Counted from the stretch's first letter, positions 1-6,000 are shown. The stretch is 32,000 nt of DNA from Xylella taiwanensis (GCF_013177435.1 NZ_CP053627.1:1620001-1652000), one strand, 5' to 3'. Made by a program: the numbers.

Positions 1-3000
1 TGAAGTAGAAACCGACCTCAACGTCACCTTCGTTCCATCAGTCAGCGTAGCTAGATAAACGCCTGGTTTCATTTCTTTTAAAGGGACATCTCCGGCCAAT
101 TGCTGTGCATAGTTTTTAATATCCTGATCAGTTAAGGCCTCTGATTTAAACACCTTCACATTACCTGCCTTATTACTTCCCCCTTTCACTTTGGGGTCAT
201 ACGGGATGGCTTTGACATTGACATTGCTTCGATTCAACAGCGATGCTTGCAGCAACATCGCATGCAAGCACCTAAAAGAAGAAAATCCATCGCGTTTAAT
301 GATTTCACTGACGCAGTGTCAAGCCAATCAAACAACCTCACGTCCACTCATAATAATCTTCTCCATTTTCGCCTTCTCCTTTAAACACCCAGACTGCTAG
401 GAATGGACACTCATTTATCAGAACAAACCAAAGTCCTACCGCTCCCAGATCCACTTCTTCATCGGAAGCAGGAAAAGATGTTCTGAACATCTCTACTAGT
501 TCCTCAGTGGTACCCTCGATAAATTCTCCCTTTGTATTGCAAATTTTGAGCCGTCCCTCATCAAGTAATTTCCCGATGATCAACAAGAAATCGTTTTTTC
601 TTTCCTCAAACGAGTCAGGATCCACTTCTCCAGCAGGAATTCCATAGGCATTCCCTATATCACTCCAAAGAAAATGAAACCCCCCCCCTAAATCCTTACA
701 AATAAAATCTATTTGTTCTTGAGTTAACATCCAATCACCTCTCACCTAAATTTAAGTTCAACTTTTTTATTTGTAATTTCTCTTAAAGAAGGATTATTGT
801 CTATATCAATCGTCCATCTTGCTTTAGTCAATTCATTTGAAGAAGAAGCAGACCTCAAGGTCACCTTCGTTCCATCACTCAGCGTAGCCAGATAAACCCC
901 TGGCCTCACCTGGTTTAAAGGCACATCTCCGGCTAATTGCTGCGCATAGTTTTTAATATCCTGATCCGTTAAGGCCTCTGATTTAAACACCTTCACATGA
1001 CCCGCTTTATTACTTCCCCCTTGCACTTTGGGGTCATACGGGATGGCTTTGAACTCCACGCCTCCAACCACTAAGCCATCCTTTGCATTGCCCTTCCCAA
1101 TCACGCCTTTTACGTTATCCAGGCGCTTTATGCGCTGTTGCTCTAAAACACTGCCAATCGGCTTTGAGGTTAAATCAGGCCCTTTAGGATTGTGTGCAAT
1201 TTGATCAAGGGCTTGTTTCTCGGCTTTGGCAATGTCATCGGCTTTGCCGGAGATCCAGCGGCCTCCGATTTTGGCCGCTCTCACACCGTATTTGGCCAGG
1301 TTGCCGATCATCACCGAGGCGATGTATTCCTCGCCTTTTTCTAGGGCCACTTGTTCTATGGTCTTTTCCCCTGAACGAATCGCTTTGATGTCTTGCCAGG
1401 CGTCATAGGCGGTCAGGCCTTTATCGGCTAACCAAAGGGCCCCAATGAGCACGGGGACGAAGACCGCGTTGTTTTCGGTTTCCAGCCGGGCTGCTGCACT
1501 GCTCACCGCCGCTTCGCCACCGGCGGCGGCGGTGATGCCGGCCACCAGGCTGGTGACGGTATCGGTGCGCTGTTGTTTTTCCGCGGCGCTCAGGCTGGCG
1601 ACGTCGGCGCCGGTGGTGCGGTCTAGTAGGTTATTGATGACCACGGCCGCCGCCGCGCCAGTCGCGCCGGCGCCGCACCCTTGGCCTTGGGCGGCAGCAC
1701 CAGCGCAGCCCAGCAGGCCTTGCAGGGCGGCACGGGCCGGTTCGCTGTCTAGTTGGTCGGCCAGTGTTTTGACTTGGCTGGCGCCTAGGCTTTGCAGGTA
1801 GTTGACCGCGGCGCCTTGAAGCATTTGGGTGGCGCTGCCGGTCACGTGGCTGCCGGCGGCCAGGTTCAGGGCGGTCACAATCGTTCTGCCGGTGCCGCCT
1901 ACGTCCCAGGTGGCGTTGTCTTGGAGGCGCTGCTGGAGGGCCGCGATTAGGGCCGGGTCGCACTACCGCCGCCCTACCCTTGGGCGGCAGCGCAGCTCAG
2001 ATTTAGTTCTTTTACTCAATGCATGATTTTTCTAACGCACCTCACTTGGAATCTGCGTCTCTGGCTTGCGGTATGAATGCAGTTTTCTTTCAAATTCCCA
2101 TTGCTTTAAAGGATGCGTTTTACCATGCATTTCTTTATAAACCCATTGTTCGGTTTTTTTAATGGCATCAAGAAATTCTTGATCTAATGTCCACGCCTTA
2201 GAGTGAATCACCCAGGGATTTTCTCGATATAAAGCAACCGTGACGTCGAAGGACTGCTCTATAGTATCTTTACCCTCATACCGGGCGATGAGGCTGTCAA
2301 TCTCTGGCAAAAAATAACACAGCGCTGATCCCAGTGTCGGCACCGTCATCCCTGTATCAGCATCAAGGGTTTGCCCAGATTGCTCATTCAGAAGCAGATC
2401 AATGCCAATGACAAAAATGAAATTCTTTGATGAGAAGCGCGCTTTTTTCAACCTTCCTCGCGGATCTACAGGATGACTTTCAACAAAGCCAAATTCAGCA
2501 AGCTTGCGATGGCATTCGACTACTCTTAACCACTCTTTTTCCACTGTGAGGGATTGCTTACTCATGGTTTCACCATTTTTCCTGTAGCTGCGTCATAAAT
2601 ATATCCATGTTTCTCGAGATAGGTTATTTCACGTCCAAAGCCGGTCAGGGTTCCATCTGCTCTAAGCATATTTCCTGATTCTTTTGAATTTAGAATAAAA
2701 GGTCCACTTTTTGGTGTTGTTGCCAGCACAATGTCATCTCCTCTTTTTATAGCGGCATCCAGGAAGGGTTTATTGACCTGTTGCCAGAATTTCTCTGGGC
2801 CTAATGCGGCGTACAGACTATCTGGGGTATTCAGTAAATTAAACGAGCCAGGTTGTATTGGGCCATCAATAATCATTGACTTGGGCAAGCCCAGTTCTAG
2901 ATTGATGATGCGATCAGTGTCATCTAAAAAGGCTCCAAGCACCGTGGTGGTCTTATCAGGATTAGCCTTGATGACCACGCCACTGGTTGTTCTGATTTCT

Positions 3001-6000
3001 GCCGGCAAGAGGTAAGCGGCACCATCTCGATAGAAGTGCTGAGCTTGTTCCGCACTGGCAATCGCCTCCGCACGGCCCAGCTGATAGGCCTTAGACGCGG
3101 CCATGCCTTCCAAGACATCTTTACTCAGATTGATGCCTACGTTGGTAAGGGCCGCACCGCCTTTGGCCACGCCGCCCACCCCCAAGACAACTGAACCAAT
3201 ATCCCAGACCACGGTGCCAAGATCGCGACCGTATTGCTCGGCATGCTGATTACCTCCAACGGTCAGGGCCGTCTGCATGCGATCAATCTTGTGATCTATC
3301 TCCTGAAAAACGCTGTCGCCTAATTGCTGGCGTACTTCTCGGTTGGTGATCAGCTCCTTCAGGCCACGAAGGCCAGCCATGGGGTTGGAGAGAAATTGCA
3401 CCAGTCCTTGAATATCGCTGAGGCCTGATTCGGCTAAGCCTTTGACTAATCCAACGCCCGTTAATCCTTCTTGTCTTGCATAAATGGAACCCCATTTGGC
3501 CGCCACTTGCAGCGATTCCAAGAGGCCATTGGCCGCTGCAAGCTCCTGATTCATTTGCGCGTTTTGCTGGGTGGCAAGCCAGTTGTTATCCAGCGCCGCA
3601 GTGGCTGCATGGGTGGCGCTGGCTGCATGGGCATCGCCGGCGCTGGCAATGCCGGTGACCAGGGAAAGAATCAGGTTGCGTTTTGCTTCACGCTGCTGGG
3701 CGGTTTCATCGGGCGTGGTGGCGCTGAATAAACCGGTGAGTACGCTGGAGGCCGCCGCGCCCGTGGCCCCGCTGCCGCAGCCTTGCTGGCTGGCCGCGGC
3801 ACCGGCGCACGCCACGATGGCATGCAAGGCCGCGTGTAAGGGCGTGCCTTCGGTGAGTTGCCCGTTGGCGACCAGGTGACCGATATAGGAGGCCCCTTGT
3901 TGCTGTACGTAGTTCACCAGCATGGTGTTAGCTACCTCGCGCGTGGCGGCGCTGGCATTGCCACTGATGCCGGCGGCTAAGGCGGTAGTGATTTGCCGAT
4001 AGGTGCCGCCGGGGGCCCAAGTGGCGTTGTCTTGGAGGCGCTGCTGGAGGGCCGCGATCAGGGCCGGGTCACGTTGGTGTTCGGGTTTGGCGCGTTCGCT
4101 GTCTAGGGCCTGTTGGGTTTGGGTGGCTTCTTGAGCGCGGTTGTTAATAAAGGTGCCGACTTCGCGCTGTAGGCCGCTGACGACGTTTTATGACTTCCCG
4201 CTTTATATTCGGATGAGGTTGGTTTTAGATTTAAACCAAAAATAACCCATTGATGATTTAGGCGAGGCGACCCAAACACACCCTGCTTTATTCAATAGCC
4301 TTTAAATAAAACACCACGATTTATATTAGCAATCATACCCGCACCGGCACCCCCCCTTGGGGACGCGGCACCCGTGCAGCAACACCACTCACCTCAAGAG
4401 GCAGTGCAATTACTGAGGCATCATCAAAAACACCATCCGTAATCATCCTCACCATGTTCTCCTAATCCTTTATATACCCAGACGGCGACGAATGGACACT
4501 CCTCAAACACTAACCAAAGTCCTTTCTCTAGCGCTTCATCCGAAGCAGGAAAACATTGTCTGAACGGCTCCAGCACCTCCTCGGTGGACCCCTGCATAAT
4601 ACGCTCCTCCTTTCTGTGACCAAGCTTGAAACGACCCTCATCCATTAATTTCCTCAGTACAAAGAAGAAATCGTTTTTTCTCTCTTCAAATGAATCCTTA
4701 TCTATTTGCGTAGAAGAAATTCCATGTGCATCCCCTACATAACTCCAAAGAAAATGCAAAGGCTCGTCCGACCTGTCCGGGTCACAAATAGAATCTATCT
4801 GCTCTTGGGTTAACATCCAATCACCTCTCACCTAAATTTAAGTTCAACTTTTTCTTTTGTAATATTCATCAAAGAGGGGTTATCTTTGATATCAATCGTC
4901 CATCTTGCTTGAGTCACCTCTTGTGAAGTAGACACAGACCTCAACGTCACCTTCGTTCCATCACTCAGTTCAGCCAGATAAATACCTGGCTTCACCTGCT
5001 TTAAAGGCACATCTCCGGCCAATTGCTGTGCGTAGTTTTTAATATCCTGATCCGTTAACACCTGAGAATCAAACACCTTCGCATTACCCATTTTATTACT
5101 TCCCCCTTTCACTTTGGGGTCATACGGGATGGCTTTGAACTCCACGCCTCCAACCACTAAGCCATCCTTTGCATTGCCCTTCCCAATCACGCCTTTTACG
5201 TTATCCAGGCGCTTTATGCGCTGTTGCTCTAAAACACTGCCAATGGGCTTTGAGGTGAGATCAGGCCCTTTAGGATTGTGTGCAATTTGATCAAGGGCTT
5301 GTTTCTCGGCTTTGGCAATGTCATCGGCTTTGCCGGAGATCCAGCGACCGCCGATTTTGGCCGCTCTCACGCCGTATTTGGCCAGGTTGCCGATCATCAC
5401 CGAGGCGATGTATTCCTCGCCTTTTTCTAGGGCCACTTGTTCTATGGTCTTTTCCCCTGAACGAATCGCTTTGATGTCTTGCCAGGCGTCATAGGCGGTC
5501 AGGCCTTTATCGGCTAACCAAAGGGCACCAATGAGCACGGGGACGAAGACCGCGTTGTTTTCGGTTTCCAGCCGGGCTGCTGCACTGCTCACCGCCGCTT
5601 CGCCACCGGCGGCAGCGGTGATGCCGGCCACCAGGCTGGTGACGGTATCGGTGCGCTGTTGTTTTTCCGCGGCGCTCAGGCTGGCGACGTCGGCGCCGGT
5701 GGCGCGGTCCAGTAGGTTATTGATGACCACGGCCGCCGCCGCGCCAGTCGCGCCGGCGCCGCACCCTTGGCCTTGGGCGGCAGCACCAGCGCAGCCCAGC
5801 AGGCCTTGCAGGGCCGCACGGGCCGGTTCGCTGTCTAGTTGGTCGGCCAGTGTTTTGACTTGGCTGGCGCCTAGGCTTTGCAGGTAGTTGACCGCGGCGC
5901 CTTGAAGCATTTGGGTGGCGCTGCCGGTCACGTGGCTGCCGGCGGCCAGGTTCAGGGCGGTCACAATCGTTCTGCCGGTGCCGCCTACGTCCCAGGTGGC

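What the first reader, a model, noticed from the sequence alone, without database searches (positions are those of the whole stretch)
2032..4184. Orphan-2 encodes a toxin/immunity pair I cannot place in any known family
After ALDNNWL (3582-3596) the 339-aa CT has a Gly-rich hydrophobic segment (GTVVWDIGSVVLGVGGVAKGGAALTNVG). A C-terminal domain of about 150 aa follows: TTTVLGAFLDDTDRIINLELG...FWQQVNKPFLDAAIKRGDDIVLATTPKSGPFILNSK...GTLTGFGREITYLEKHGYIYD.

The alternating beta/alpha-like pattern hints at a Rossmann-like or nucleotide-binding fold. It contains no HNH, AHH, deaminase or colicin-nuclease motif that I can see.

The 177-aa partner (2032-2565) is translationally coupled through an ATGA overlap and is equally unassignable. 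This is the best candidate in the window for an uncharacterised toxic activity.
Basis: inference. Interest (0 to 1): 0.65.

Follow-up and report, generated by a model that had tools for sequence, protein, structure and literature searches.

The report
Orphan CDI toxin of unknown family
This is a spare contact-dependent-inhibition toxin and immunity gene pair in Xylella taiwanensis; its 140-residue warhead belongs to a large, widespread toxin family that no database names and whose predicted fold matches no solved structure.

Summary
On the minus strand a frame is open from 4184 to 2562. It carries an ALDNN motif (3582-3596), a 339-aa C-terminal region, and an ATGA overlap with a 177-aa ORF (2032-2565).

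The window is from Xylella taiwanensis. The pair is an orphan cdiA-CT/cdiI module behind the main cdiA/cdiI.

The CT has two parts. This domain is homologous to that of the E. coli EC869 tRNase CdiA-CT (E 9e-14). Only the last ~149 aa (2565-3011) are the toxin.

That toxin domain has no hit in Pfam, NCBIfam, PADLOC, PHROGs or PDB sequences. A confident AlphaFold model (pLDDT 83) has no Foldseek match in PDB or BFVD.

The domain is nevertheless common. At least 1,153 clusters at 50% identity contain it, always at the extreme C-terminus. Carriers include full-length CdiA, PAAR/prePAAR, LXG and PT-TG proteins from many phyla. At least seven mostly unrelated immunity families sit downstream of it.

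The invariant residues are Thr, Asn, Arg, Asp and Glu, with no conserved His, Cys or Lys. The median pI is about 5.8. I infer a cytoplasm-acting enzyme, but its activity is unknown.

The parts
4002..4183 (-). Recombination handle. These 182 bp are 95% identical to the main cdiA at window 5977-6158 and encode VSGLQREVGTFINNRAQEATQ...QDNATW.
   Evidence: blastn within the window; translation
3597..4184 (-). Pre-toxin region of the orphan. The frame opens right after a TAA stop. It has a weak DUF637 hit and diverges from the main cdiA after the handle.
   Evidence: It is 56-64% identical to the pre-toxin regions of full-length CdiA in Propionivibrio, Accumulibacter and a betaproteobacterium.
3582..3593 (-). 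LDNN, the VENN-equivalent motif that marks the start of the delivered CT. Related cassettes have VDNNWLA.
3090..3578 (-). Cytoplasm-entry domain, homologous to the N-terminal part of CdiA-CT EC869 (7vmc_B residues 27-189). It contains the Gly-rich hydrophobic segment at 3135-3218.
   Evidence: phmmer against PDB sequences, E 9.1e-14. Table 2 of PMC11630599 lists the EC869 entry domain as type #13 with an unknown receptor.
3021..3044 (-). AQHFYRDG in the linker between entry and toxin domains. It looks like a degenerate copy of the VENNFYxDG junction. That junction directly precedes the toxin domain in CdiA proteins that lack an entry domain.
   Evidence: alignment A1; L051, L056 and L059. This is an inference.
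2565..3011 (-). Toxin domain of 149 aa. Family motifs are KTTTVLG (2934-2954), FNLLN (2829-2843), RGDD (2733-2744) and TGFGRE (2628-2645). All invariant family residues are present.
   Evidence: AlphaFold model with pLDDT 83 and pTM 0.79
2562..2565 (-). ATGA overlap between the toxin stop codon and the immunity start codon. GGTGA lies 5 nt upstream of the ATG.
   Evidence: sequence read
2032..2565 (-). Putative immunity gene (cdiI-o2) of 177 aa. It belongs to a small family found in Xylella and Polaromonas and has no Pfam, NCBIfam or PDB match.

Best explanation
This is an intact orphan cdiA-CT/cdiI module in a Xylella taiwanensis CDI (hemagglutinin-type two-partner secretion) locus.

How it is deployed: the module has no secretion or filament part of its own. 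It keeps 182 bp of 95% identity to the main cdiA. Homologous recombination there could graft the cassette onto the full-length effector. This step is inferred by analogy with E. coli orphan modules.

The delivered region starts at LDNN and has two parts:
1. An alpha-helical, Gly-rich entry domain of the EC869 type. By homology it should carry the toxin across the target's inner membrane through an inner-membrane protein that has not yet been identified.
2. A ~140-aa C-terminal toxin domain from a large, unnamed polymorphic-toxin family.

The translationally coupled 177-aa protein is the cognate immunity protein.

Mechanism of the toxin (inferred): it is a soluble enzyme acting in the cytoplasm on a target shared by Gram-negative and Gram-positive bacteria. 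The likely active site is built from the invariant Thr pair (KTTT), Asp (DDTD), Asn pair (FNLLN), Arg-x-Asp (RGDD) and Glu (GFGRE).

I judge a Mg2+-dependent phosphoryl or glycosyl hydrolase or transferase acting on a nucleotide, cofactor or protein substrate slightly more likely (about 0.45) than a nuclease (about 0.35). The confidence given here is for the module identity and the reading as a cytoplasm-acting enzyme toxin, not for the specific chemistry.
For: Module identity:
- The pair lies directly downstream of the main cdiA (4828-14217) and its DUF596 cdiI, and is followed by another orphan.
- It has the handle homology, the LDNN motif and the ATGA coupling.

Deployment elsewhere:
- The whole pretoxin-VDNNWLA-entry-toxin cassette sits at the end of frames of at least 1,140 aa in Propionivibrio, Accumulibacter and a betaproteobacterium, at 51-64% identity.
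- The domain ends full-length TPS proteins of 4,049 and 2,639 aa.

Toxin status:
- The domain is at the extreme C-terminus in 203 of 203 full-length instances, with a median of 0 residues after it.
- Carriers include CdiA with PT-VENN, PAAR plus prePAAR, LXG, PT-TG and PG_binding_1 proteins.
- A small downstream ORF is nearly always present.

Cytoplasmic target:
- The entry domain is homologous to that of the EC869 tRNase.
- Delivery by prePAAR (T6SS) and LXG (T7SS) carriers is consistent with a cytoplasmic target. That reading rests on established knowledge of those carriers.

Enzyme character:
- The model is a compact alpha/beta domain with pLDDT 83.
- T21, N55, N76, R86, D88 and E116 are 100% invariant across 203 instances, and T22, G25, D30 and N58 are about 99%.

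Against a typical nuclease: median domain pI is 5.84, only 33% of domains exceed pI 8, and no His or Lys is conserved.

Integrity: all invariant residues are present in the window copy. dN/dS against paralogues is 0.4-0.6.
Against: - No toxicity or immunity assay exists for any member that I could find.
- No structural or sequence relative gives a chemistry, so the catalytic proposal rests only on residue conservation and charge.
- The immunity model is poor (pLDDT 45), so binding could not be examined.
- The main cdiA in this window is split by a C10 tract. Even after recombination the toxin might not be displayed in this strain.
- No promoter or terminator signal above chance was found.
- Most characterised CDI toxins are nucleases, a prior that favours the rival.
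Confidence: 0.75

Rival explanations
1. The C-terminal domain is a metal-dependent nuclease (DNase or RNase) of a previously unseen fold. It would resemble the PT1 and PT7 DNases found by systematic screens. Asp, Glu and Asn would hold Mg2+ and Arg would bind the phosphate.
For: - Most CDI toxins with entry domains are nucleases (Table 2 of PMC11630599).
- Invariant D30, D88, E116 and the Asn residues could chelate a metal.
- Several cognate immunity proteins are acidic, with pI 4.7-5.5.
- New-fold DNases are known from polymorphic toxins (bioRxiv 10.1101/2021.10.19.465003).
Against: - Median domain pI is 5.84, and the window copy has pI 5.8 and net charge -1.
- No conserved His or Lys.
- No Foldseek similarity to any nuclease in PDB, including the PT1, PT7, BECR, PD-(D/E)xK and HNH folds.
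- The family profile finds nothing in PDB sequences.
Confidence: 0.35
2. In this genome the toxin half is a silent relic. Only the immunity gene matters, protecting against neighbours that deploy the toxin. The orphan CT is never expressed or displayed.
For: - The frame has no secretion domain and starts right after a stop codon.
- No promoter signal above chance was found.
- The main cdiA is interrupted at a C10 tract in this strain.
- Two other loci in the same genome keep intact immunity paralogues next to truncated 113-codon toxin remnants.
Against: - The window copy is intact over 540 codons with every family-invariant residue.
- It keeps a 95% identical 182-bp handle for recombination.
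- The cdiA frameshift is absent in another strain, which has an intact 3,525-aa gene.
- Orphan modules in E. coli are known to be functional when fused.
Confidence: 0.25
3. The domain is a Rossmann-like nucleotide-binding fold, for example an NADase, nucleotide hydrolase or SLOG/TIR/NDT-like enzyme, too diverged for sequence methods.
For: - The model has a beta-alpha-beta-alpha-beta core.
- A G-x-G-R-E loop sits at a helix N-terminus, and a Thr-rich strand could bind phosphates. This is an inference.
- The near-neutral pI suits a small-molecule substrate.
Against: Foldseek gave no Rossmann-like hit better than E 0.7 and TM 0.27, despite thousands of such folds in PDB. Nothing was found in BFVD. 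There were no Pfam hits to TIR, SLOG, NDT, TNT or Sir2.
Confidence: 0.15
4. The CT is a membrane-acting ionophore, with the Gly-rich hydrophobic segment as the killing part.
For: The segment GTVVWDIGSVVLGVGGVAKGGAALTNVG is hydrophobic and glycine-rich. CDI ionophores are common (PMC11630599).
Against: - The segment aligns with the entry domain of a cytoplasmic tRNase toxin.
- It is absent from most carriers of the toxin domain, including LXG and PAAR proteins and CdiA proteins that run from VENN directly into the toxin.
- The conserved C-terminal domain is soluble alpha/beta.
Confidence: 0.03

Closest known systems
Orphan cdiA-CT/cdiI modules of E. coli EC93/EC869-type CDI loci
   Same: - Position behind the main cdiA/cdiI.
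- No secretion domain.
- A short stretch homologous to cdiA upstream of the VENN-type motif.
- A tightly linked immunity gene.
- Arrays of several orphans.
   Different: The motif is LDNN rather than VENN. The host is a xylem-limited plant pathogen. The toxin domain belongs to no described family.
CdiA-CT EC869 tRNase (PDB 7VMC; E. coli toxin type 12, entry type #13)
   Same: The N-terminal ~165 aa of the CT are homologous (E 9e-14), including the Gly-rich hydrophobic helix region. Both are therefore the same kind of cytoplasm-entry domain, and the receptor is unknown in both.
   Different: The C-terminal toxin domains are unrelated. The alignment stops at CT residue ~164. The family profile does not hit 7VMC or any other PDB chain.
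Newly catalogued polymorphic-toxin domains (Levy-lab PT1-PT9; Pandoomain W10XG Tox1-Tox24)
   Same: - Short C-terminal domains of polymorphic toxins without Pfam annotation.
- Followed by small immunity genes.
- Often of novel predicted fold.
- Some are linked to PT-TG and LXG/WXG carriers, as here.
   Different: Identity with any of them could not be tested because no sequences are held. PT1 and PT7 have crystal structures, and neither the profile search nor Foldseek found them. The distributions reported for PT1-PT9 do not obviously fit.
ToxB, the ParB-CTPase-fold ATPase CDI toxin (bioRxiv 10.64898/2026.05.05.722872)
   Same: A non-nuclease, nucleotide-directed CDI toxin located after a VENN-like motif in plant and animal pathogens. 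It shows that CDI warheads need not be nucleases.
   Different: ToxB was found through Pfam PF02195 and has the ParB fold. This domain has no ParBc hit and no ParB structural match.

Membership tests
Orphan cdiA-CT/cdiI module (CDI, type Vb secretion) | Lies downstream of a full cdiA and its cdiI in the same orientation | tested here: met
   The main cdiA is at 4828-14217, with its ESPR/TPS part at 14177-15607. Its DUF596 cdiI is at 4424-4831, and orphan-2 follows it.
Orphan cdiA-CT/cdiI module (CDI, type Vb secretion) | Lacks the TPS and filament regions but keeps homology to cdiA just upstream of the CT | tested here: met
   The frame opens at 4184 right after a stop codon. Window 4002-4183 is 95% identical to 5977-6158.
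Orphan cdiA-CT/cdiI module (CDI, type Vb secretion) | VENN-type pre-toxin motif at the start of the variable CT | tested here: inconclusive
   An LDNN motif is present and relatives have VDNNWLA. However, the Pfam PT-VENN model does not hit this ORF, and there is only a weak DUF637 hit at E 2.4e-5, below the cutoff.
Orphan cdiA-CT/cdiI module (CDI, type Vb secretion) | Small immunity ORF immediately downstream | tested here: met
   A 177-aa ORF overlaps by ATGA. The same arrangement occurs in 48 of 51 related loci.
Orphan cdiA-CT/cdiI module (CDI, type Vb secretion) | The CT is toxic and is specifically neutralised by the partner | not testable with these tools
   This needs expression and competition assays.
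EC869-type (#13) cytoplasm-entry domain | Sequence homology to the N-terminal domain of CdiA-CT EC869 | tested here: met
   phmmer gives E 9.1e-14, matching query residues 2-164 to 7vmc_B residues 27-189.
EC869-type (#13) cytoplasm-entry domain | Dependence on a specific inner-membrane protein for import | not testable with these tools
   The receptor is listed as unknown even for EC869 (PMC11630599 Table 2).
Described toxin domain families (Pfam Ntox/Tox-*, HNH, EndoU, deaminase, ART, TNT, colicin nucleases; NCBIfam) | Profile match at or near the curated threshold | tested here: not met
   No toxin-region hit at E <= 1 for the window protein. None at E <= 0.1 for 36 family members. None in the carrier proteins.
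Any toxin or enzyme with a solved structure | Sequence-profile or structural similarity to a PDB chain | tested here: not met
ToxB (ParB-CTPase fold CDI toxin) | PF02195 ParB N-terminal domain and ParB fold | tested here: not met
   No ParBc hit and no ParB structure among the Foldseek hits. The definition is taken from the paper.
Rossmann-like nucleotide-binding folds | Three-layer alpha/beta/alpha sandwich superposable on known members | tested here: inconclusive
   A beta-alpha-beta-alpha-beta core is predicted. The best Rossmann-like or P-loop hits have TM 0.18-0.27 and probability <= 0.08. Model coordinates could not be inspected.

The most novel reading that the evidence does not exclude
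The ~140-aa domain is a new protein fold that carries a toxic chemistry not yet seen in interbacterial toxins: neither nuclease, NADase, ADP-ribosyltransferase, deaminase nor pore. It would act on a cytoplasmic target conserved from Proteobacteria to Firmicutes. It would have been spread by type V, VI and VII secretion carriers across at least eight phyla, with at least seven independently recruited immunity families.
Probability: 0.3. Interest if true: 0.75.

Novelty: new variant of a known kind. Interest (0 to 1): 0.55.

Why it matters
The system itself, an orphan CDI toxin/immunity cassette, is well understood. The warhead is the new part.

- **Scale of the family.** It has more than a thousand clusters at 50% identity. 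It is delivered by three different secretion routes in Proteobacteria, Firmicutes and several poorly studied phyla. It has no name, no Pfam model, no solved relative and no known activity.
- **What characterising one member would give.** It would annotate thousands of genes. It could reveal a new fold and possibly a new way to stop bacterial growth.
- **Xylella biology.** This plant-pathogen genus carries several hemagglutinin loci. The cassette and its paralogous immunity genes bear on strain competition inside xylem and insect vectors.
- **Entry domain.** It offers a second handle for finding the still unknown receptor of the EC869-type import pathway.

Tried and rejected
**Database and structure searches (no informative hit)**
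- Pfam and NCBIfam on the window proteins: no toxin or immunity hit.
- Pfam on 36 family members: only PT-TG in the carrier parts.
- PADLOC and PHROGs: nothing.
- PDB sequence search with the single sequence and with the family profile: only the entry-domain match to 7VMC.
- Foldseek of the toxin model against PDB and BFVD: no hit with E < 0.25.
- Immunity model: too poor to use (pLDDT 45). Its Foldseek run gave only short, non-significant matches.

**Attempts to reach outward from the family**
- Walking out from the most divergent member (Planctomycetaceae): only 3 known members returned.
- tblastn against plasmids: two hits, annotated as hypothetical or unannotated.
- blastn of the Lelliottia cassette against all complete E. 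coli genomes: no match. It is therefore not one of the E. coli CdiA-CT types at DNA level.

**Hypotheses dropped**
- ToxB/ParB-fold hypothesis: rejected.
- My first assumption that the entry domain is YciB-dependent: wrong and withdrawn. YciB serves the TA271/o11 DNase, whereas the EC869 tRNase entry type has an unknown receptor.

**Literature and signals**
- Motif search of the literature (TTTVLG, FNLLN, TGFGRE): nothing relevant.
- Supplements of the PT and Pandoomain papers hold no sequences to compare.
- Promoter and terminator scan: at chance level.
- hhalign among the immunity clusters: mostly unrelated. Only B-E (48%) and B-D (23%) gave weak links.

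
Full report
**1. What is in the sequence**

On the minus strand, a frame is open from 4184 (just after a TAA stop) to the stop at 2562-2564. Gene callers take the ATG at 3923, giving a 453-aa product. ALDNNWL lies at 3576-3596, and 339 aa follow LDNN. The 177-aa ORF at 2032-2565 starts inside the toxin stop codon (aaaccATGAgt), with GGTGA 5 nt upstream.

**2. Context**

The 177-aa product is identical to a protein found on Xylella taiwanensis chromosomes, for example CP087686.1 at 164092-170625. 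The window therefore comes from that species. The minus-strand gene order is:
- cdiA (4828-14217, with an ESPR/TPS part at 14177-15607);
- a DUF596 immunity gene (4424-4831);
- this pair;
- a second orphan (742-1878) with another DUF596 gene (338-745).

The first 182 bp of the orphan frame (4002-4183) are 95% identical to cdiA at 5977-6158. After that the two sequences diverge. GC content falls from about 0.66-0.70 in cdiA to 0.43-0.49 over the toxin and immunity genes. This is the anatomy of an orphan cdiA-CT/cdiI module.

**3. The CT has two parts**

*Entry domain.* A search of PDB sequences with the 339-aa CT gives one real hit. Residues 2-164 align with residues 27-189 of 7vmc_B, "tRNA nuclease CdiA" of E. 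coli EC869, at E 9.1e-14. That part of EC869 CT is its cytoplasm-entry domain. In Table 2 of PMC11630599 it is entry type #13 with an unknown receptor. I first assumed YciB was the receptor and withdrew that after reading the table.

*Toxin domain.* The alignment stops at about residue 164, and the C-terminal toxin domains are unrelated. The conserved family domain covers the last 149 aa (2565-3011).

**4. The toxin domain is real, common and unnamed**

*Size of the family.* The word-indexed search found 87 homologues. All were "hypothetical" or "filamentous hemagglutinin", and none had a precomputed Pfam domain. A profile of 27 trimmed sequences, searched against 1.84 billion cluster representatives, found:
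- 1,153 clusters at E <= 1e-3;
- 649 clusters at E <= 1e-10;
- 251 clusters at E <= 1e-30.

*Position in the protein.* Among the retrieved proteins, 203 carry the full domain, and it ends at the protein's C-terminus with a median of 0 residues after it.

*Carriers.*
- Full-length TPS/hemagglutinin proteins of 4,049 and 2,639 aa.
- A Lelliottia CdiA with PT-VENN.
- A Caulobacter PAAR plus prePAAR protein.
- LXG proteins of Firmicutes.
- A PG_binding_1 protein of Dormiibacterota.
- PT-TG proteins.

*Distribution.* A scan of one genome per species found 51 loci. They come from Beta-, Gamma- and Alphaproteobacteria, many Clostridia, Dormiibacterota, Bryobacterales, Elusimicrobia and Planctomycetes.

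*Deployment on full-length CdiA.* In Propionivibrio, Accumulibacter and another betaproteobacterium, the whole cassette lies at the end of frames of at least 1,140 aa. The cassette comprises the pre-toxin region, VDNNWLA, the same entry domain and the toxin, at 51-64% identity to the window copy. The cassette is therefore deployed on full-length CdiA elsewhere.

**5. No known family fits**

- Pfam (2025) and NCBIfam (2026) give no hit to the toxin region or the 177-aa ORF at E <= 1.
- Pfam gives none for 36 family members at E <= 0.1.
- PADLOC and PHROGs give none.
- The family profile finds nothing in 177,635 distinct PDB sequences, with a best E of 0.78.
- AlphaFold2 with the 36-sequence alignment gives a confident model (mean pLDDT 83.3, pTM 0.79). 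Its order of elements is hairpin, strand (TTVL), helix, short strand (FN), long helix, strand (IVLA), hairpin, helix, hairpin.
- Foldseek finds no match in PDB. The best hits are E 0.7 with TM <= 0.27, to Ras-like GTPases and a methyltransferase. It finds none in BFVD either, with a best E of 0.25.
- The recently described ParB-fold CDI toxin ToxB is excluded. It was defined through PF02195 and the ParB fold, and neither is seen here.
- PT1 and PT7 of the Levy-lab screen have crystal structures and were not hit. The other PT families and the Pandoomain Tox families could not be compared because no sequences are held.
- A motif search of the literature returned nothing relevant.

**6. The immunity side**

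The Xylella-type 177-aa protein has only 7 homologues in the large database plus one in Polaromonas aquatica. Its AlphaFold model is unreliable (pLDDT 45), and the fold search with it is uninformative.

I extracted the ORF immediately downstream of the toxin in the related loci. These ORFs fall into at least seven BLAST clusters. By hhalign the clusters are mostly unrelated, with only weak B-E and B-D links. None has a Pfam hit. One toxin fold paired with many immunity families is usual for polymorphic toxins, and it supports the toxin reading.

**7. Mechanism**

*Shown:*
- the module architecture;
- the homology of the entry domain;
- C-terminal placement on secretion carriers;
- strict conservation of a small polar set. 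In profile numbering, T21, N55, N76, R86, D88 and E116 are 100% conserved. T22, G25, D30 and N58 are about 99% conserved. No His, Cys or Lys is conserved.

In the window protein these residues sit in KTTTVLG, DDTD, FNLLN, NKP, RGDD and TGFGRE.

*Inferred:*
- The entry domain, together with prePAAR and LXG carriers, points to a cytoplasmic target common to Gram-negative and Gram-positive cells.
- The conserved polar cluster points to an enzyme.
- The near-neutral charge is unlike the basic nucleases typical of CDI. Median pI is 5.84, 33% of domains exceed pI 8, and the window copy has pI 5.8.
- I therefore put a nucleotide-, cofactor- or protein-directed hydrolase or transferase at about 0.45 and a novel-fold nuclease at about 0.35.
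- The G-x-G-R-E loop at a helix start and the Thr-rich strand could bind phosphate. I could not inspect the coordinates to check this.

**8. State of the module in this genome**

The window copy is intact and keeps all invariant residues. Two other hemagglutinin loci in the same chromosome keep paralogous immunity genes (81-86% identical). Next to them are 113-codon remnants that start in mid-domain (MIIDGP...) and lack the KTTTVLG strand. Pairwise dN/dS is 0.4-0.6 for both the toxin remnants and the immunity genes. Differences between the paralogues concentrate in the loop TTPKSGPFILNSKESGNMLRADG.

The main cdiA in the window is split at a C10 run (14192-14201) into a 476-aa ESPR/TPS ORF and the 3,129-aa remainder. 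Another strain has an intact 3,525-aa gene. Deployment of this orphan would need both recombination and an in-frame cdiA. A silent-relic reading for the toxin half therefore cannot be excluded.

**9. Verdict**

This is a toxin/immunity pair whose toxin and immunity parts belong to no described family.

The claim needs four refinements:
- half of the CT is a recognisable entry domain;
- the Rossmann idea is unsupported;
- the main and orphan-1 toxins of the same locus are also unplaced;
- the toxin belongs to a very large unnamed family rather than being a one-off.

The system is of a known kind and the warhead is a new variant. Interest is moderate to good. New toxin families are reported regularly. 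This one is unusually widespread, has a confident model without structural relatives, and is easy to test.

Noticed in passing
window 14177-15607 and 4828-14217; C10 run at 14192-14201 (minus strand): The main cdiA is split into a 476-aa ESPR+TPS ORF and a 3,129-aa ORF that overlap at a 10-C homopolymer. Another X. taiwanensis strain (CP087985.1) has an intact 3,525-aa gene. This could be a frameshift pseudogene, phase variation or an assembly error.
   Followed up: partly
window 4828-5560 (main CdiA-CT) and 742-1878 (orphan-1), with immunity genes at 4424-4831 and 338-745: The main CT and its diverged orphan copy also have no Pfam toxin hit and no PDB sequence match. Their immunity proteins are DUF596. 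They are therefore equally uncharacterised toxins.
   Followed up: partly
L009 7663-8534 and L011 7663-8549 (other X. taiwanensis hemagglutinin loci): Truncated 113-codon remnants of this toxin, starting mid-domain, are each coupled by ATGA to an intact paralogous immunity gene (81-86% identical). dN/dS is 0.4-0.6. Differences cluster in one surface loop of the toxin.
   Followed up: yes
window 3021-3044; L051, L056, L059: AQHFYRDG, just before the toxin domain, resembles the VENNFYxDG or IDNNFWxEG junction. In Polaromonas and Hydrogenophaga CdiA that junction joins VENN directly to this toxin with no entry domain. This suggests the entry domain was inserted by recombination at a VENN-like site.
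   Followed up: partly
loci L001-L065, ORFs immediately downstream of the toxin domain: At least seven immunity-protein clusters accompany the one toxin family. They are mostly unrelated by hhalign and all lack Pfam hits. Firmicute loci carry strings of extra immunity paralogues.
   Followed up: yes
window 15608-19316: No cdiB/TpsB-sized ORF lies directly upstream of cdiA. The neighbours are a 128-aa ORF with no Pfam hit, a LysE-type translocator and PrmA.
   Followed up: partly
window 2001-3500 versus 5500-14500: GC content drops from 0.66-0.71 in the cdiA repeat region to 0.43-0.49 over the orphan toxin and immunity genes. This is consistent with horizontally exchanged cassettes.
   Followed up: no
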